The notes under the pieces: generated by a model
What the model was told of the DNA's origin: nothing
Databases searched by the model: none
What the model saw: the letters and a program-made list of their open reading frames with translations, nothing else
Part shown: piece after piece, positions 4,919 to 12,443 of the stretch
Position numbering within the stretch: position 1 is the first letter of the stretch
Layout: each line of letters begins with the position of its first letter
Made by a program: the position numbers and the translations under genes
NCBI GenBank assembly: GCA_020057405.1
Contig: JAGVFW010000003.1
Span: 1-64,000, forward strand
From: an archaeon
Lineage (GTDB): Archaea > Micrarchaeota > Micrarchaeia > Norongarragalinales > UBA97
DNA length: 64,000 nucleotides
Direction: 5' to 3'

Positions 4919-5182
4919 CTAGATAGGCGAATACCAGCGCTTGTACTGACCGTGATTGCCAATGAAATAGATCGTCTTGGTTCTGGAGGACAGGTCGGTT
5001 TGAAAGGCAATTCGGTAGCCGCCGACTTCCTCGATGAAGTAAGGCATGCCGTGCTCCAGGTGGCGGCTCTTTTCTTTGGTTTTGAGTTGCTCGAGTTTCT
5101 TTAAAATTCGTTGTTTGACTGCAGCGTCGAAATCCTTGAAGTGCTTGTCCCAACCGGAAGCGTACTTCAGTTCGTACGTCAT
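4919..5182 (-). CDS. relE: RelE/ParE-family toxin
   Basis: 87 aa: YELKY...FD..VKQRILKKL...VGGYRIAF...YFIGNH. Confidence 0.8.
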   Translation of the reverse strand: MTYELKYASGWDKHFKDFDAAVKQRILKKLEQLKTKEKSRHLEHGMPYFIEEVGGYRIAFQTDLSSRTKTIYFIGNHGQYKRWYSPI

Positions 5183-5238
5183 TGAAAGAAAATTAAGCCG
5201 GCGCTACAAGTAGTTGGTTTTGGCAGTGACTTGCCAGC

Positions 5239-5520
5239 CTAACTTTTTTTCAGGCCAAGCTCTTTTCGGTATTTTGCCAGCGCCTCGTCCTCGCCCATTA
5301 CCTTGCGCTTGCCGGACTTTATTTCCGCATCAACTTTCTTCATCTTTCGAGCGGCCATCAGGTCTTCGAGCTCCTGGGGGTTGCGAAGGACATTGAACTC
5401 TTTCCCCAATTCGAGAACGCCAACGCGAATGGCTTCCGAACGAGTGCGGAAGTAACCCAAGTCAACGAGGCGCTCTAGGACATCGGCAACGGCGCCGTCA
5501 AGGCGAACAACTGCTTCCAC
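5239..5520 (-). CDS. Ribbon-helix-helix antitoxin
   Basis: LVDLGYFRTRSEAIR CopG-type motif, directly upstream of the toxin. Confidence 0.8.
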   Translation of the reverse strand: MEAVVRLDGAVADVLERLVDLGYFRTRSEAIRVGVLELGKEFNVLRNPQELEDLMAARKMKKVDAEIKSGKRKVMGEDEALAKYRKELGLKKS

Positions 5521-8079: not shown

Positions 8080-8166
8080 AGTAAAAACCACCCTGAGAAT
8101 GAGTGACGAATTAGAGTAGGTCGGCCAATGCTTAATAATTTATTGGGTAGGGCCGTTATCCACAGT

Positions 8167-10803
8167 ATGGCCTTCCCGGCACCCGCATTTACCAAAAAAC
8201 GCGAGTTTCGGTGGTTTATGGCGCTCGTGCTCCTTGCGATACTCCTGCTTTTACTCCAGAGCGGACAAAAGCCTGCGGCAAAAGCAACGCCAACTCCTTC
8301 GCCCACACCGCAGGCGACCGGCTATGTGCAGCAAATGCAGGACGGAACGATGGTGAGCCGGTCGTACACTTTCCTTGACGGAGGGTACGTTGACTCTGCC
8401 GTTTTGCAAAATAACGGCAATTCCACGGTCGACATTACTTCGTTCTACGTCGTGCCCAAGGCGTTCGGAGCTGATGCGTCAAAATCCGACTTCGTGCAAA
8501 ACAATTCTTTCAACTCGCGGTTCATCTCGCAGTACCCGATTGTGCACGCAAGCGACACGCAACTCGCACCCGGGGGACAGTCAAGAACCGGCTTTTCCTA
8601 CAACGAGCCGCTAAGCAGAATCGCGATTCCGTTCTTCTTCACCGCACCCAAAAACGGCGATGAAGAAAAACTAAAGCCGCTTCTTGAAGCGCTTTCGGAA
8701 TACGGTCTCGGGGAGCAAACGCACGCGCTATTGAGCCGGACGCTCTCGCAAATTCTCTCGAGTAGCTTCTCGCCCGAACTCAAGTTCAACCGCGCGCTCT
8801 CGTTAGTAAGCGCGTTTGGCGAACTGCGGTTCCTTGGCCTTGACGCACCCATTGCGGAAAAGCAAATGGCTGCGCTTTTGGCTGCTGAGAAGCCCCTCGA
8901 CGAGAGGCTGCGGAATGCTTTCCTCTACCGCGATTTGCTAAAGCGGGAAATTGCCTACGCCGATGCAAGCGGCGGAACCTATGCGAGCGTGCTAAACGCA
9001 CTTGGCCCACTTATCAACGCAGGCGAACTGGAGAGTGCAAGCAACAAGCTCCTCGAGATGGAGAAAGAAAAGGGAGTCAAGCCCGAAGCCGCACTGCTTA
9101 ACGCCTCGGGTGGAAACAAGACATTTGATCCCTACCAATTTTTCCCAACGCATCCGCTCAGGGTGTCCGTCGACGTCAGCGAGATGGACCCCAAGGGCTT
9201 CAACTTTACGATACTCAACAGCAGCGTCGAGGTCGGACAACCGCTCGCGCGATTTGAGGGGCCTGCAGCTGATTACGCGGGCTTTGGCGTGGTGTCGCTT
9301 GGCAAGAACCTCAACATCAGTATTTCCGCCGACATTGGCAACGCGATTCTAAACGAGGACGGCACGGTTGACTTTAGCCATGCTAAGGCCAGCCTCATCA
9401 CGCGGTTCTTCGCACTGCCGGAAAAGTACGGCAACGTCACCGTCGAAGTCAACGTCAAGCACGAGAGCCTCAAGCCATTGCTTGACTACTACGGCCTCGA
9501 GTGGCCTGAAGAACCGCCAACTGTTGATGAAGCGCTTTCGGCAATTGGACAGGCACAACAGTGCAATCCATTTGGAGCTAGCCAAGGCATGACTCCGCAA
9601 ACATTTGCAGGTTCTGCCCCGGGAATAGTTTCTTGCCCGCTTGACGGCAGGCCGGCATTCGGCGGAAAGTGGGGTGACTCGCGAGCTTATCGCGGAGGCA
9701 CGCACAATGGCATTGACGTGGGCGTGCCAAAAGGCACGCCAATACGCGCTATGGCAAACGGAGTAGTTGCTAGCTTACCGGCGGGCTATTGCGGCCAGGG
9801 CATCACGATGGACTATGGCACAATTACCCTTCCGGCCGAAACAGTTGCAAGAATGAATGCAATCATGGCAAAAACGAATTACGGCAAGCAACTTTCAGCT
9901 GGAGAAACGGCGAACGCGCGCCTGACTGTGACATCGTGCCACTCAAGCAAGCGATTTGTTACAGTGGGACAGCAAGTCAAGGCCGGCGATGTCATCGGCT
10001 TAGTAGGCTCTACTGGCTGTCCCAACAACTGCGGACCGCACCTGCACATCCAAGCGAGGCTCAACGGCCGTTTCGTGCCCTTCGAAGCATTTTACGAGGG
10101 ATGTACACAAGGAAAAGTCACTCCATCGGAATCTGGCGGCAGTCAGGCGGATCCTGAAACTCCTCTTCCGCAAGAGCCAATATCATTAGCCTATAACGCG
10201 AACGGTTGCGTGCAGGATTATGGAACCGCTTTGAACGCAATTGCACCCCTTCCATTGGGCACACTCCCTGCAAACACGGGAGCGGCGCTTGCACCAAAGT
10301 CCTCCGCTTGCGCGAGCCTCGTGCCCCTAGTGCACGCCGAGCTTGCAAAGACGGGATTGCACGCGCGAGGCTTGACTACGGAGTACGTCATGGCCATGAT
10401 AACACAAGAAAGCTCCTGCCGCATTAATCCAAGTAACGGCCAGGGCCCAATGCAGGTAGTCGCCTGCGCTGCAGACCGCTGCTCGCTTACGGAAAACATA
10501 CGCCGCGGAGTGGGCCAGCACATCGTGCCAGGTTATGTAATGGGCCGCAAGAACGGGCTTTCGGGAAAGAAGCTCCTGCAGTTCATGGGCCTCTACTACA
10601 ACCGCGGCGTGGGAACTGCACAAAAGGCACTCAAGCTCTACGCTGCGGGAACTGAATTCACTGCCGCGCTAAACCAGGCCTGCCTGCAGAACTTCAGGGC
10701 AAGCTTGTGCGAAAAGAGCGGCTACGGCGCATACTATTATGAGGCCGTGCAAAAGCGCTGCGTAGAGCAATACGGAAAGGCTTGCAACACCGACGTTGCC
10801 TAA
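8167..10803 (+). CDS. Membrane-anchored multidomain protein with M23 peptidase and lysozyme/SLT-like domains (putative peptidoglycan hydrolase)
   Basis: N-terminal TM helix and PT linker. HNGIDVGVPKGTPIRAMANG (HxxxD) and GPHLH (HxH). AMITQESS...GPMQV...YYNRG resembles SLT motifs I-III. Confidence 0.85.
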   Translation: MAFPAPAFTKKREFRWFMALVLLAILLLLLQSGQKPAAKATPTPSPTPQATGYVQQMQDGTMVSRSYTFLDGGYVDSAVLQNNGNSTVDITSFYVVPKAFGADASKSDFVQNNSFNSRFISQYPIVHASDTQLAPGGQSRTGFSYNEPLSRIAIPFFFTAPKNGDEEKLKPLLEALSEYGLGEQTHALLSRTLSQILSSSFSPELKFNRALSLVSAFGELRFLGLDAPIAEKQMAALLAAEKPLDERLRNAFLYRDLLKREIAYADASGGTYASVLNALGPLINAGELESASNKLLEMEKEKGVKPEAALLNASGGNKTFDPYQFFPTHPLRVSVDVSEMDPKGFNFTILNSSVEVGQPLARFEGPAADYAGFGVVSLGKNLNISISADIGNAILNEDGTVDFSHAKASLITRFFALPEKYGNVTVEVNVKHESLKPLLDYYGLEWPEEPPTVDEALSAIGQAQQCNPFGASQGMTPQTFAGSAPGIVSCPLDGRPAFGGKWGDSRAYRGGTHNGIDVGVPKGTPIRAMANGVVASLPAGYCGQGITMDYGTITLPAETVARMNAIMAKTNYGKQLSAGETANARLTVTSCHSSKRFVTVGQQVKAGDVIGLVGSTGCPNNCGPHLHIQARLNGRFVPFEAFYEGCTQGKVTPSESGGSQADPETPLPQEPISLAYNANGCVQDYGTALNAIAPLPLGTLPANTGAALAPKSSACASLVPLVHAELAKTGLHARGLTTEYVMAMITQESSCRINPSNGQGPMQVVACAADRCSLTENIRRGVGQHIVPGYVMGRKNGLSGKKLLQFMGLYYNRGVGTAQKALKLYAAGTEFTAALNQACLQNFRASLCEKSGYGAYYYEAVQKRCVEQYGKACNTDVA

Positions 10804-12443
10804 GGCAGCTCGATTTCAAAAACAGCGCAGGGGACTGAGACGCCAAAGGCAGTCAGGACGCCCGGGTTAACTTCGCCCATTTGCCCGACCGGCTTGGAAT
10901 CAATAAGCACTTTTGCCGCACGGCCTTCGATGAATTGCGGCGAGGAAAGCTTCTCGAAAACGACTTTCTTGCCCAACCGCTTGGCGAATTCGCAAAGCAC
11001 GCTTGCAACTTCGGATAAATTGGCACTCGCGTGGCAGCTTGCCGCGGCCAAGTGCAGTTTAGTCTGCATTCGCTCAGGAAGCTTGGCGTTGTGCACGACA
11101 ACTTCGCCAGCCTCAAAAATCTTTTGCGGATATTCGATGTGCGTGTTCTGGCAAAGGACCTCAAGCAGGTTAGGCAAGAGCGTCGCGCGCATCACGTGGT
11201 ACTCGCTGCTGACTGGGTTTGCGATTTCAACGAACTCCTCGGCGCTTTTTGCGCGCCGGATTTTCTCCTCATTTGAAAGCACGTGCGTTGAGACCTCAAG
11301 GAAGCCCGCGCCGGCTAGAAAGTCTCGCGCGAAGTTTTCTTTTTCAGTCTTGGGGCTGATGCCGCCGTTGGTGAAAACGCGGGTGGCAATTGGCTCAAAA
11401 ACATTGTAGCCGATGCCCATGGCAACTTCTTCGACGAGATCTATTGGATGCAGAAAGTCGCTTCGGTAGGCGGGAATGGAGGCGATGACGGAATTGCCTT
11501 GCACTCGCGCAGTTATGCGCTGGCGCAAGAGAGATTGGGCCAGGGCGGTTGGCGATAGTGTAGTGCCTAACGTATTGTTGGCGTAGTCTACAGAGAGCGT
11601 CATTTCACTTGGCGTCGGGTCAGGCGTCAATTGCGTCTTGCCGTTAGGGTAGTGCACCTTGATGCGCGAGACTTTTGCCCCAGCGTCGGCAAAGTCGTGA
11701 CACAAAATGTTCATCGCGGCATTAAGGGCGTGGCCGTCGGTGCCGGTCATGTCGATGAAAAGGCTCGTTGTTGCAGTAGTCACTGCGTTGTCGAGGTTGT
11801 TGACAACTGGAATCAGCGCTAGGACTTGCTCGCGCGAGTCGACGAGGACAGGATACTTGGGGCCCTTGCCGGCCAGGTGGCCGTACTTGACGCCAGTCTC
11901 GTGGCGCGTCAGGATTTCCGAAAGCGACATGGGCGAGGTTGATTTTAGCGGCGTGTACTTGAATGAGGCGTCGAAGGCCTTGAAGTAAAATGGCGGGGAA
12001 AGCTTGTCGAGGTCGTAGAGGCCGATGCTCACGCGCTTTCGCCGCCGGCCGATTGTGAAGTCGAGCTTCTCCTGCCGCTGGAAGAGTTCGGCAATCGAGT
12101 CGTCGTCAAAGAAGACGCCTTCGATGACGGCGCCGGCAACGAAGGGCCGAACAGCAAGTGCCTCGGCCTCGGCAAAGTACTCGACTTGCGATGTCGGGAA
12201 ATCGTGCTTGGGGACGCCGGTTTCGGTTCCAAGCGCGCCTTTTAGCGCGCGGGCAACGCCATAGACGCTAAGCAGGTCGGGCCTATCGGGCGTTGTTTCG
12301 AGAGTGAGCTCGTCGGTCGCCTTGTCGTATCCGCCGACTACGCACTTGACTGACTCGAGCCCGCGTTCGAACTCTTCGTCGGACTTAGGCATCCAGCCGG
12401 CGAGCTTTAGCAGCAATTGTTTCTTCGCGGTGATGTTTACCAT
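10800..12443 (-). CDS. pheT: Phenylalanine--tRNA ligase beta subunit (archaeal type)
   Basis: RPDLLSVYGVAR, QEKLD...GRRRKRVSIGLYDLD and YRSDFLHPIDLVEEVA motifs. Confidence 0.97.
   Translation of the reverse strand: MVNITAKKQLLLKLAGWMPKSDEEFERGLESVKCVVGGYDKATDELTLETTPDRPDLLSVYGVARALKGALGTETGVPKHDFPTSQVEYFAEAEALAVRPFVAGAVIEGVFFDDDSIAELFQRQEKLDFTIGRRRKRVSIGLYDLDKLSPPFYFKAFDASFKYTPLKSTSPMSLSEILTRHETGVKYGHLAGKGPKYPVLVDSREQVLALIPVVNNLDNAVTTATTSLFIDMTGTDGHALNAAMNILCHDFADAGAKVSRIKVHYPNGKTQLTPDPTPSEMTLSVDYANNTLGTTLSPTALAQSLLRQRITARVQGNSVIASIPAYRSDFLHPIDLVEEVAMGIGYNVFEPIATRVFTNGGISPKTEKENFARDFLAGAGFLEVSTHVLSNEEKIRRAKSAEEFVEIANPVSSEYHVMRATLLPNLLEVLCQNTHIEYPQKIFEAGEVVVHNAKLPERMQTKLHLAAASCHASANLSEVASVLCEFAKRLGKKVVFEKLSSPQFIEGRAAKVLIDSKPVGQMGEVNPGVLTAFGVSVPCAVFEIELP

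What the first reader, a model, noticed from the sequence alone, without database searches (positions are those of the whole stretch)
8167..10803. Archaeal surface protein combining M23 endopeptidase and lysozyme/SLT-like domains
Seen: TM anchor, PT linker and a ~450-aa stalk region. Then intact M23 zinc motifs HNGID (9703) and HLH (10039), with an insertion between them. Then a Cys-rich domain with QES (10405), GPMQV and YNRG. Established: M23 enzymes cut peptidoglycan peptides, SLT/GH23 enzymes cut the glycan, archaea lack bacterial peptidoglycan, and such hydrolases have been reported in archaea including DPANN. Inference: a two-activity, cell-tethered enzyme for attacking or scavenging bacterial walls, hinting at a bacterial host or prey. 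It sits between core genes (rpl11, pheT) with no mobility genes nearby.
Basis: partly seen in the sequence, partly recalled or inferred. Interest (0 to 1): 0.8.

Follow-up and report, generated by a model that had tools for sequence, protein, structure and literature searches.

The report
Micrarchaeal two-enzyme bacterial-wall hydrolase
A tiny symbiotic archaeon that makes no bacterial-type cell wall itself encodes an exported protein joining a zinc peptidase and a hidden lysozyme-like domain, most likely to cut the walls of neighbouring bacteria; the idea is already in print for related archaea, but this particular protein family has not been described.

Summary
Window 8167-10803 (+) (alternative start 8128) is one open frame of 878/891 aa.

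Domains, N to C:
- One N-terminal hydrophobic helix and a Pro/Thr linker.
- A roughly 400-aa module of beta-sandwich, helical bundle and beta-sandwich. It is not a featureless stalk.
- An intact Peptidase_M23 domain (Pfam E 6.4e-17).
- A 173-aa Cys-rich C-terminal domain.

Pfam and NCBIfam do not recognise the C-terminal domain, but three results place it in the GH23/lysozyme-like fold:
- Its family profile hits goose-type lysozymes and MltC/MltE.
- 9 of its 31 homologues reach the Pfam SLT cut-off.
- Its AlphaFold model (pLDDT 96) matches GH23 structures at Z 12-13.

The organism is a Micrarchaeota (DPANN) archaeon with a 1.22-Mb genome. No Mur/pMur ligase or penicillin-binding protein was found in it. 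The gene keeps its place between rpl11 and pheT in relatives, while the catalytic domains are swapped: M23, NlpC/P60, Amidase_3, and another glycosidase-like domain.

Most likely it is an exported bifunctional peptidoglycan hydrolase acting on bacterial walls. Whether for host attachment, killing or scavenging is untested. It is a new variant of a known kind, since DPANN wall hydrolases are already reported.

The parts
8131..8144 (+). TATA-box-like AT-rich element upstream of ATG 8167 (putative archaeal promoter; implies a leaderless mRNA and the 878-aa form)
   Evidence: Sequence read. The spacing of 23-36 nt to ATG 8167 is my reading (inference). The database gene call also starts at 8167.
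8167..10803 (+). Coding sequence of the multidomain hydrolase (878 aa; the frame is open from ATG 8128, giving 891 aa; residue numbers in this report use the 891-aa form)
8194..8256 (+). Single N-terminal hydrophobic helix (res 23-43) preceded by KKREFR: a signal anchor (N-in, C-out) or the h-region of a Sec signal peptide
   Evidence: Hydropathy peak at res 25-51. AF2 helix 23-43. Cleavage not testable here.
8263..8316 (+). Disordered Pro/Thr-rich linker (res 46-63, contains TPTPSPTP)
   Evidence: motif at nt 8287. pLDDT < 50 for res 46-63.
8323..8646 (+). Beta-sandwich domain 1 of the lineage-specific N-module (res 66-173)
   Evidence: AF2 model mccbc0f5fe59a. Only generic Ig-like/adhesin/CBM-like fold matches.
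8659..9108 (+). Helical bundle of the N-module (res 178-327)
   Evidence: This segment is shortened or missing in P0028, P0032 and P0021.
9121..9465 (+). Beta-sandwich domain 2 of the N-module (res 332-446), the best conserved part of the module
   Evidence: pLDDT mostly > 90. Z 8-9 to S-layer SbsC, PapD-like and cadherin-type sandwiches. Conserved across relatives.
9700..10074 (+). Peptidase_M23 domain (res 525-649) with H526/D530 (HNGID), H605 (SCHSS), H638/H640 (HLH) and an insertion of about 30 aa between the first motif and H605
   Evidence: Pfam 62 bits, E 6.4e-17. Residue-by-residue alignment to 2hsi, 5kqb and 6muk. Coordinates.
10105..10281 (+). Inter-domain linker (res 660-718), Pro/Ala/Ser-rich, with two Cys
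   Evidence: Not covered by any domain hit.
10282..10800 (+). Cys-rich GH23-type (SLT / goose-lysozyme-like) domain (res 719-891). Catalytic-type Glu761 in QES; GPMQV; YNRG; 7 Cys
   Evidence: Family alignment A1 has invariant E, S, C, Y, N, G. Profile against PDB E 1.1e-4 to g-type lysozyme, with E aligned to chain residue 73 of 153l. AF2 pLDDT 96.0, pTM 0.90. VIA Z 13.3 (4hpe), 12.9 (MltF), 12.3 (MltE), 12.1 (MltC).

Best explanation
The gene encodes an exported, probably membrane-tethered, bifunctional peptidoglycan hydrolase of a Micrarchaeota (DPANN) archaeon.

Proposed mechanism:
- Its single N-terminal helix takes the protein through the Sec pathway, N-terminus in and the rest outside.
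- A Pro/Thr linker and a lineage-specific module (beta-sandwich, helical bundle, beta-sandwich) hold the enzymes away from the membrane and may bind a surface.
- The zinc-dependent M23 domain cuts peptide stems or cross-bridges.
- The disulfide-rich GH23-type domain cuts the MurNAc-GlcNAc glycan, either as a muramidase or as a lytic transglycosylase.

No peptidoglycan or pseudomurein synthesis genes were found in the archaeon's genome, so the substrate would be the wall of neighbouring bacteria. The enzyme would open that wall at a contact site, kill competitors or release wall fragments as food.

Shown here: the domain identities, the conserved catalytic residues, the fold, the conserved locus, domain swapping among wall-specific enzymes, and that no wall-synthesis genes were found.

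Inferred: export topology, activity, substrate and ecological role.
For: M23 domain:
- Pfam 62 bits, E 6.4e-17.
- HNGID, SCHSS and GPHLH align with the H..D, catalytic His and HxH of solved M23 enzymes.

C-terminal domain:
- Only 31 homologues at E <= 1e-3 among 1.84 billion representatives.
- Of these 31, 17 give a Pfam SLT hit at E <= 0.01 and 9 reach the gathering cut-off.
- The profile of 28 family members hits goose-type lysozymes (E 1.1e-4 to 2e-3), MltC (1.1e-3) and MltE (8e-3). The invariant Glu aligns with residue 73 of goose lysozyme 153l.
- The AF2 model has pLDDT 96.0.
- Best structural matches are all lysozyme-like: 4hpe Z 13.3 (rmsd 2.5, 136 aligned), MltF 12.9, MltE 12.3, MltC 12.1, Slt70 9.9, g-type lysozyme 9.9. 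Foldseek puts the same set at the top.

Substrate:
- 15 of the 31 family representatives also carry M23, NlpC/P60, Amidase_3, M15_4 or LysM.
- The own genome (90.6% complete) gave no Transpeptidase, SLT or Amidase_3 hit. Its single Mur_ligase_M protein is FolC, at 335 bits.
- The own genome also encodes a secreted NlpC/P60 next to a secreted glucosaminidase-like protein, and a second M23-like protein.

Genuine archaeal gene:
- Named relatives are Micrarchaeota/Micrarchaeia, Nanoarchaeia and Diapherotrites.
- The order rpl11 / gene / pheT-pheS recurs in G225. In L002 the gene sits beside rpl11, and in L003 beside pheT-pheS.
- GC 0.55-0.56 matches the flanks.

Export: a single N-terminal hydrophobic helix after KKREFR, and 16 Cys confined to the extracytoplasmic half.
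Against: - No activity data exist.
- The C-terminal domain itself gets no Pfam or NCBIfam hit and no single-sequence PDB hit. Foldseek gives no match at E <= 1e-3.
- For mostly helical models the tool warns that Z below about 13 can be a common arrangement.
- GH23 also contains chitinases: Ralstonia A-471 scores Z 11.0. The fold therefore does not fix the substrate.
- In the closest bacterial analogue of the architecture, PrgK, the LytM domain is degenerate and only the SLT domain is active (abstract of PMC11323569). Two domains need not mean two activities, although here the M23 residues are intact.
- No recognised wall-binding domain is present.
- The known hosts of cultured Micrarchaeota are wall-less or S-layer archaea, not bacteria (my recollection, not a call).
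- The genome is 90.6% complete, so a gene not found is not proven absent.
Confidence: 0.7

Rival explanations
1. Same enzyme folds, different substrate. The protein acts on a non-peptidoglycan polymer: chitin or chito-oligosaccharides, or glycans and proteins of an archaeal host envelope (S-layer glycoprotein, pseudomurein-like walls). It would serve attachment to, or feeding on, an archaeal host.
For: - GH23 includes a chitinase, and the model matches it at Z 11.0 (3w6b). Archaeal and plant chitinases and chitosanases also appear at Z 5-7.
- The N-module sandwiches resemble cellulose- and chitin-binding modules and S-layer domains at a generic level.
- Cultured Micrarchaeota have archaeal hosts (recollection).
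Against: - The scaffold and the GH23-like domain are combined in relatives with Amidase_3 (MurNAc-L-Ala amidase), NlpC/P60, M15_4 and LysM. Taken together these point to murein.
- The closest structural matches are murein enzymes.
- From established knowledge, not tested here: lysozyme-type enzymes do not cut the beta-1,3 bond of pseudomurein.
Confidence: 0.15
2. House-keeping autolysin. The enzyme remodels a murein-like or pseudomurein-like wall of the archaeon itself, for example at division. This would fit its fixed place among core genes.
For: - Conserved position between rpl11 and pheT in several relatives.
- No mobility genes nearby.
- FtsZ lies in the same window.
Against: - No Transpeptidase hit. 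The only Mur_ligase_M protein is FolC, and pMurC/pMurE score far below their cut-offs on it.
- Patchy distribution: the C-terminal family was found in 12 of 401 genomes of the phylum and the N-module in 16 of 68 of the order. A core wall-remodelling enzyme would be expected more widely.
Confidence: 0.05
3. Mainly an adhesin. The catalytic-looking domains bind wall material but do not cut it, or only one of them is active, as in PrgK.
For: - In PrgK the LytM and CHAP domains show no hydrolytic activity and regulate the SLT domain (abstract of PMC11323569).
- The N-module looks like adhesin and S-layer sandwiches.
- The M23 domain carries an unusual insertion of about 30 aa.
Against: - All five M23 metal and catalytic residues are present.
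- Glu, Ser, Tyr-Asn and Gly of the GH23 motifs are invariant across 28 family members at only 38% mean column identity.
Confidence: 0.07
4. Artefact: a bacterial fragment mis-binned or mis-assembled into an archaeal contig.
For: M23 and SLT are typically bacterial domains. Named short M23 relatives are bacterial, at 30-42% identity only.
Against: - The gene lies inside a 64-kb stretch of archaeal core genes, with the same GC as its flanks.
- Orthologues occupy the same locus in other Micrarchaeota assemblies.
- Family members with names are all DPANN.
- No close bacterial, phage or plasmid counterpart was found.
Confidence: 0.02

Closest known systems
DPANN 'murein-like lytic transglycosylase' proteins. 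Sources: Woesearchaeota/Pacearchaeota fam00969, Castelle et al. 2021, PMC8204110 (passages read). GH23 in Woesearchaeota, Vigneron et al. 2022, PMC9723730 (passages read). Three Micrarchaeota genomes, Chen et al. 2018, PMC5864196 (one passage read).
   Same: Extracellular GH23/SLT-type domain in genome-reduced DPANN archaea that lack murein. The same proposed role: binding or degrading bacterial walls, with possible bacterial hosts or prey.
   Different: - Those proteins were found by annotation as SLT/GH23. This domain escapes Pfam and NCBIfam.
- The Pace/Woese proteins are giant, up to 3,000 aa.
- This one is fused to an intact M23 on a Micrarchaeia-specific N-module and sits at a conserved core locus.
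- I could not check whether the three Micrarchaeota genes of Chen et al. belong to this family, because supplements are closed.
Archaeal modular peptidoglycan hydrolases, e.g. the zoocin-A-like M23 proteins of Halogranum salarium shown to kill a bacterium. Source: Strock et al. 2025, PMC12352652 (abstract, section 6 and passages read).
   Same: An archaeal M23 domain with conserved catalytic residues. Patchy distribution. Domain shuffling. A signal for export. An antibacterial reading.
   Different: - That survey required a recognised wall-binding domain next to the catalytic one. This protein has none, so it would not have been counted.
- Here a second catalytic (glycosidase-type) domain and a novel N-module replace PG_binding_1.
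- The locus is chromosomal and core, not a plasmid or small contig.
PrgK of Enterococcus faecalis pCF10 and the Tn916/CTn1 Orf14-Orf17-type conjugation wall hydrolases. Sources: PDB 4hpe, 4fdy; PMC11323569 (abstract read).
   Same: - An N-terminal membrane helix followed by several extracellular wall-hydrolase domains, including LytM/M23 and an SLT-type domain.
- 4hpe is the best structural match of the C-terminal domain (Z 13.3) and also a profile hit (E 7e-3).
   Different: - No VirB4 was found in the genome and there are no T4SS genes beside the gene.
- PrgK's LytM is degenerate, whereas this M23 is intact.
- Sequence identity is 14-16% only.
- The organism is an archaeon.
Goose-type lysozymes and family-1 lytic transglycosylases (MltC, MltE, MltF, Slt70), CAZy GH23
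   Same: All-helical lysozyme fold. E-S, G-x-M-Q-V and Y-N-x-G motifs in the same order. The catalytic Glu is aligned.
   Different: - 11-19% identity.
- Extra conserved cysteines: five invariant or nearly invariant.
- A C-terminal Cys-rich extension (GYGAYYY...C...C) is shared only with the closest Micrarchaeota relatives.
- Whether it is a muramidase or a lytic transglycosylase cannot be told from sequence.

Membership tests
Peptidase family M23 (Pfam PF01551 / MEROPS M23) | Profile match above the curated cut-off | tested here: met
   62 bits against a cut-off of 28.7, E 6.4e-17, res 525-649. Confirmed on the genome.
Peptidase family M23 (Pfam PF01551 / MEROPS M23) | Zinc ligands HxxxD and the second His of HxH, plus the two catalytic His (the mid-domain His and the first His of HxH) | tested here: met
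   HNGID (526-530), SCHSS (H605) and HLH (638-640) align with HSGLD/HYGID, FCHLSK and GPHMH/GAHLH of 2hsi, 5kqb and 6muk. The roles of these residues are recalled from the LytM and lysostaphin literature.
Peptidase family M23 (Pfam PF01551 / MEROPS M23) | Zinc-dependent endopeptidase activity on peptidoglycan peptides | not testable with these tools
   Needs expression and assay on sacculi or muropeptides.
SLT / GH23 (Pfam PF01464; goose-type lysozymes and family-1 lytic transglycosylases) | Direct profile match of this protein to PF01464 | tested here: not met
   No SLT hit at E <= 1 for the whole protein or at E <= 10 for the domain alone. No hit on the genome. I therefore file it as a divergent GH23-type domain, not as a member of the Pfam SLT family as currently modelled.
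SLT / GH23 (Pfam PF01464; goose-type lysozymes and family-1 lytic transglycosylases) | Homology through intermediates or a family profile | tested here: met
   9 of 31 homologues reach the SLT cut-off and 17 of 31 hit at E <= 0.01. The family profile against PDB gives g-type lysozymes at 1.1e-4 and MltC at 1.1e-3.
SLT / GH23 (Pfam PF01464; goose-type lysozymes and family-1 lytic transglycosylases) | Lysozyme-like all-alpha fold | tested here: met
   Model pLDDT 96.0. Z 13.3, 12.9, 12.3 and 12.1 to 4hpe, MltF, MltE and MltC, covering res 3-166 of 173. Caveat: helical models can reach Z of about 13 by arrangement alone. Here the top 15 rows (Z >= 8) are almost all lysozyme-superfamily enzymes.
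SLT / GH23 (Pfam PF01464; goose-type lysozymes and family-1 lytic transglycosylases) | Catalytic Glu in the E-S motif at the end of the helix, followed by the GLMQ and AYNxG motifs | tested here: met
   E, S, Y, N and G are invariant in 28 sequences. The E aligns with residue 73 of 153l, counted from the alignment. That this is the catalytic Glu73 is recalled.
SLT / GH23 (Pfam PF01464; goose-type lysozymes and family-1 lytic transglycosylases) | Cleavage of the MurNAc-beta-1,4-GlcNAc bond (hydrolytic or with a 1,6-anhydro product) | not testable with these tools
   Needs LC-MS of the muropeptide products.
T4SS-associated wall hydrolases (VirB1 / PrgK / Tn916 Orf14 type) | Encoded within, and working with, a type IV secretion or conjugation gene cluster | tested here: not met
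   Neighbours are ribosomal-protein and tRNA-synthetase genes. No CagE_TrbE_VirB match in the 90.6%-complete genome. No similar sequence in the plasmid or phage collections.
Archaeal modular PGHs as defined by Strock et al. 2025 | At least one catalytic domain plus one recognised cell-wall-binding domain | tested here: not met
   No LysM, PG_binding, SH3, SPOR or similar hit. The N-module gives only generic beta-sandwich matches.

The most novel reading that the evidence does not exclude
This is the founding member of a vertically inherited wall-breaching surface device specific to one order of Micrarchaeia. A fixed membrane anchor and a new beta-sandwich/helical host-recognition module carry interchangeable murein-cutting heads: M23, NlpC/P60, Amidase_3, a GH23-like domain and a GH73-like domain. 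The gene is kept at a core locus (rpl11 / pheT). Its presence would mark Micrarchaeia lineages whose hosts or prey are bacteria rather than archaea, so it would serve as a genomic marker of cross-domain episymbiosis.
Probability: 0.25. Interest if true: 0.8.

Novelty: new variant of a known kind. Interest (0 to 1): 0.45.

Why it matters
Very few DPANN archaea have a known host, and no bacterial host has been demonstrated. Wall hydrolases are the main genomic hint that some DPANN interact with bacteria.

This finding adds three things:
- A family that standard annotation misses. The lysozyme-type domain is invisible to Pfam and NCBIfam, so surveys based on domain hits undercount such enzymes in Micrarchaeia.
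- Evidence that the gene is old and fixed in place in one Micrarchaeia order while its catalytic heads are exchanged. That pattern is expected for an interface with changing targets.
- A compact, testable enzyme: two small domains with clear point mutants. Its specificity on different murein chemotypes could point to the partner bacteria.

It is also a possible source of disulfide-stabilised antibacterial enzymes.

Tried and rejected
- Direct family searches of the C-terminal domain. Pfam and NCBIfam gave only a sub-threshold CEL_III_C hit. Single-sequence phmmer against PDB gave only noise, E >= 0.16.
- Foldseek of the C-terminal model gave no match at E <= 1e-3, although the top rows were GH23 enzymes.
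- The search for related loci with the 28-row alignment was rejected because it had no conserved stretch. I repeated it with a 4-row alignment, which found 2 loci among 23 pattern matches.
- A word-based homologue search with the N-module found only the protein itself. The ESM Atlas gave no usable hit.
- N-module fold searches gave only generic beta-sandwich matches, Z <= 9.3, and did not test the helical bundle properly. No function can be assigned.
- tblastn of the C-terminal domain against the phage and plasmid collections gave no match.
- Sequencing runs: none was listed and no RNA holder was listed. This says nothing about expression.
- The C-terminal domain of the G225 orthologue gave no Pfam or PDB sequence hit. 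Its relative on contig C8 gives only a sub-threshold Glucosaminidase hit, E 0.038. 'GH73-like' therefore remains a guess.
- Earlier findings of this scan: none for this place or sequence. The word search returned only analogous enzymes of CPR bacteria.
- I considered and rejected an assembly chimera and a T4SS component.
Full report
**What is there.**
Window 8128..10803 (+) is one open frame of 891 aa. The public gene call, P0004, starts at the second ATG, nt 8167, and gives 878 aa. An AT-rich TATA-like element, TTAATAATTTATT, lies at 8131-8144, which is 23-36 nt upstream of ATG 8167. GC (0.55-0.56) does not differ from the flanks.

**Anatomy, N to C** (residues of the 891-aa form).
- A basic stretch, KKREFR, is followed by the only strongly hydrophobic segment of the protein (res 25-51). 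It is modelled as a helix at res 23-43.
- A disordered Pro/Thr linker covers res 46-63.
- The '450-aa stalk' is a structured module. An AlphaFold2 model built from 9 sequences (mean pLDDT 77.5, pTM 0.71) shows three parts: a beta-sandwich (66-173), a helical bundle (178-327) and a second, confidently modelled beta-sandwich (332-446).
- Fold searches of this module give only generic Ig-like matches: S-layer SbsC domains, PapD-like, cadherin, and CBM2/CBM3-type binding modules, with Z <= 9.3. I assign no function beyond spacer and possible surface or glycan binding.
- The module is conserved in relatives. A single-sequence query finds it in 16 of 68 genomes of the same order, G000 included, and in 4 of the 6 other genomes of the same family.

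**M23 domain.**
Pfam PF01551 scores 62 bits (cut-off 28.7, E 6.4e-17) over res 525-649. Alignments to solved M23 enzymes place HNGID on HSGLD/HYGID, SCHSS on FCHLSK, and GPHLH on GPHMH/GAHLH. All five residues that bind zinc or act in catalysis in LytM and lysostaphin are therefore present; the residue roles are recalled. 125 residues align to 92 model positions. The extra roughly 30 aa lie between the first motif and H605. The relatives P0008 and P0041 lack this insertion. Shorter M23 proteins in the 5.8-billion-protein collection are at most 30-42% identical, apart from one 58% match over only 26% of the query. Those with names are bacterial. There is no close donor.

**C-terminal domain.**
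On its own it gets no Pfam, NCBIfam or PDB sequence hit. An exhaustive phmmer search of 1.84 billion representatives found only 31 proteins at E <= 1e-3.

All 31 were scanned with Pfam:
- 17 give an SLT (PF01464) hit at E <= 0.01.
- 9 reach the gathering cut-off: P0010, P0015, P0016, P0022, P0025, P0027, P0032, P0034 and P0035.
- 15 also carry M23 (4), NlpC/P60 (6, one below its cut-off), Amidase_3 (3 more), M15_4 (1) or LysM (1).

An alignment of 28 domain segments (A1, mean column identity 38%) has invariant E, S, C, Y, N, G, A, C, C. This is the E-S ... G-x-M-Q-V ... Y-N-R-G pattern.

Its profile hits the following in the PDB:
- goose-type lysozymes (E 1.1e-4 to 2e-3)
- MltC (1.1e-3)
- the CTn1 Orf17 wall hydrolase 4hpe (7e-3)
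- MltE (8e-3)

The invariant Glu (E761) falls on residue 73 of goose lysozyme 153l, counted from the printed alignment. That this residue is the catalytic Glu is recalled.

The AlphaFold2 model built on A1 is very confident (pLDDT 96.0, pTM 0.90) and all-helical. VIA-align against 48,161 PDB representatives gives:
- 4hpe, Z 13.3 (rmsd 2.5, 136 aligned)
- MltF, Z 12.9
- MltE, Z 12.3
- MltC, Z 12.1
- a GH23 chitinase, Z 11.0
- MltD, Z 10.8
- Slt70, Z 9.9
- g-type lysozyme, Z 9.9

Foldseek ranks the same proteins first but with weak E-values (best 0.088).

Because the direct Pfam test fails, I call it a divergent GH23-type domain rather than a member of Pfam SLT. Sequence cannot tell a muramidase from a lytic transglycosylase. 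In PrgK a predicted SLT domain turned out to be a muramidase (abstract of PMC11323569).

**Organism and locus.**
The genome holds 1.22 Mb in 17 contigs and is 90.6% complete. Named relatives of the protein are Candidatus Micrarchaeota or Micrarchaeia. More distant family members are Nanoarchaeia and Diapherotrites. The family appears to be DPANN-specific, although most members are unnamed.

Neighbours are core genes: CysS, L12/P1, L10/P0, L1 and L11 upstream; PheT, PheS, an SDR, RNase Z-like, LonB, FtsZ, TIM and PCNA downstream. No mobility genes are present. The only accessory-looking genes are two small ORFs at 4919-5520 that look by eye like a toxin-antitoxin pair.

The gene order is conserved in relatives:
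- G225 (same family) has P0, L1 and L11 on the minus strand, then the gene on the plus strand, then PheT and PheS on the minus strand.
- In L002 the 1279-aa relative P0007 sits beside rpl11.
- In L003 (G337) the gene sits beside pheT-pheS.
- G086 and G114 keep their family members elsewhere.

The region is therefore not chimeric, and the gene is old in this family.

**Domain swapping.**
On the same anchor and N-module, relatives carry different heads:
- P0005 and P0006: NlpC/P60, an Amidase_3-like remnant and the same C-terminal domain.
- P0007: NlpC/P60, the C-terminal domain and a full Amidase_3.
- P0008: M23 and the same C-terminal domain.
- P0021 and P0028: Amidase_3 and the GH23-like domain.

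The syntenic G225 orthologue (P0041) keeps M23 but ends in an unrelated domain. That domain is 39% identical (E 6e-38) to a separate secreted 223-aa protein of the window's own genome. The 223-aa protein gives a weak Glucosaminidase hit (E 0.038) and lies next to a secreted NlpC/P60.

The C-terminal family was found in 12 of 401 genomes sampled from the phylum. Ten of those, G000 included, are in the same order.

**Substrate.**
The own genome gave no Transpeptidase, SLT or Amidase_3 match. Its single Mur_ligase_M protein is FolC (TIGR01499, 335 bits); MurC-F and pMurC/E score far below their cut-offs on it. With the caveat of 90.6% completeness, the archaeon makes neither murein nor pseudomurein.

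Several different murein-specific domains recur on one scaffold, and the genome carries further secreted hydrolase-like genes. Together these make bacterial peptidoglycan the most likely substrate. This is inference. GH23 also contains chitinases, and no activity has been measured.

**Mechanism proposed.**
1. Sec export through the N-terminal helix, N-terminus in by the positive-inside rule. It stays as an anchor or is cleaved near AKA/T; this is not testable here.
2. The linker and N-module project the enzymes beyond the archaeal surface.
3. M23 cuts peptide bridges and the disulfide-rich GH23-type domain cuts glycan strands of an adjacent bacterial wall.

All 16 Cys lie outside the first 478 residues, which fits an extracytoplasmic enzyme part. 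The data cannot tell whether the purpose is breaching a host wall at a contact site, killing or scavenging.

**Comparison with what is known.**
- Wall hydrolases in DPANN are in print. Three Micrarchaeota genomes with a 'lytic murein transglycosylase' are mentioned in PMC5864196 (one passage read).
- Giant LT-domain proteins of Pace- and Woesearchaeota are proposed to bind bacterial walls (PMC8204110, passages read).
- GH23 in 'vampiristic' Woesearchaeota is described in PMC9723730 (passages read).
- A survey with experimental proof that archaeal M23 enzymes kill a bacterium is PMC12352652 (abstract, section 6 and passages read). That survey required a recognised wall-binding domain, which this protein lacks.
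- The closest architecture is bacterial: PrgK (LytM-SLT-CHAP behind a membrane helix; abstract of PMC11323569) and the Tn916/CTn1 hydrolases. However, no T4SS genes are near the gene and no VirB4 was found in the genome.
- My literature searches found no description of this Micrarchaeia family or of its conserved rpl11-pheT locus. Subscription journals and supplements were not searchable.

**Verdict.**
The ecological inference is plausible but untested. This is a new variant of a known kind: a cryptic GH23-type domain fused to an intact M23 on a Micrarchaeia-specific scaffold with exchangeable heads. Interest is moderate.

Noticed in passing
L029 643-1311 (+) and 1354-1983 (-) = G000 contig C8, about 25.1-26.5 kb: A convergent pair of small secreted proteins in the same genome. 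One is a 223-aa protein with a weak Glucosaminidase (GH73) hit (E 0.038). The other is a 210-aa NlpC/P60 protein (42.8 bits). Both have signal-peptide-like N-termini. The 223-aa protein is 39% identical (E 6e-38) to the C-terminal domain of the G225 orthologue of the gene studied.
   Followed up: partly
L023 6144-8927 (+) = G225 contig C7 (protein P0041): The syntenic orthologue in a sister genus keeps the anchor, the N-module and M23. It replaces the GH23-like domain by an unrelated domain of about 170 aa with no Pfam or PDB sequence hit. By eye it looks GH73-like; this is unproven.
   Followed up: partly
L018 84-977 (+) and 1099-1938 (+) = G000 contig C1, about 34.6-36.5 kb: Two adjacent lipoprotein-like ORFs with Pro/Thr-rich linkers. 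The second has a marginal M23 hit (29.1 bits against a cut-off of 28.7). By eye it lacks the HxxxD and HxH motifs, so it may be a non-catalytic LytM-type domain.
   Followed up: partly
window 4919-5182 (-) and 5239-5520 (-): Two small ORFs (87 and 93 aa) just upstream of the ribosomal-protein cluster look by eye like a RelE/ParE-type toxin with a ribbon-helix-helix antitoxin. There was no Pfam hit at E <= 1e-4. They are the only accessory-looking genes near the finding.
   Followed up: no
G086 contig C1 305383-305781 (+) and 1089632-1090024 (-): One genome of the same order carries two members of the C-terminal domain family. One is an 897-aa protein with NlpC/P60 plus an SLT-type domain. The other lies in a 428-aa open frame. 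Neither is next to rpl11.
   Followed up: partly
window 10800-10803: The stop codon of the hydrolase gene overlaps the stop codon of the convergent pheT gene (10800..12443, minus strand). There is therefore no intergenic space for a terminator between them.
   Followed up: no
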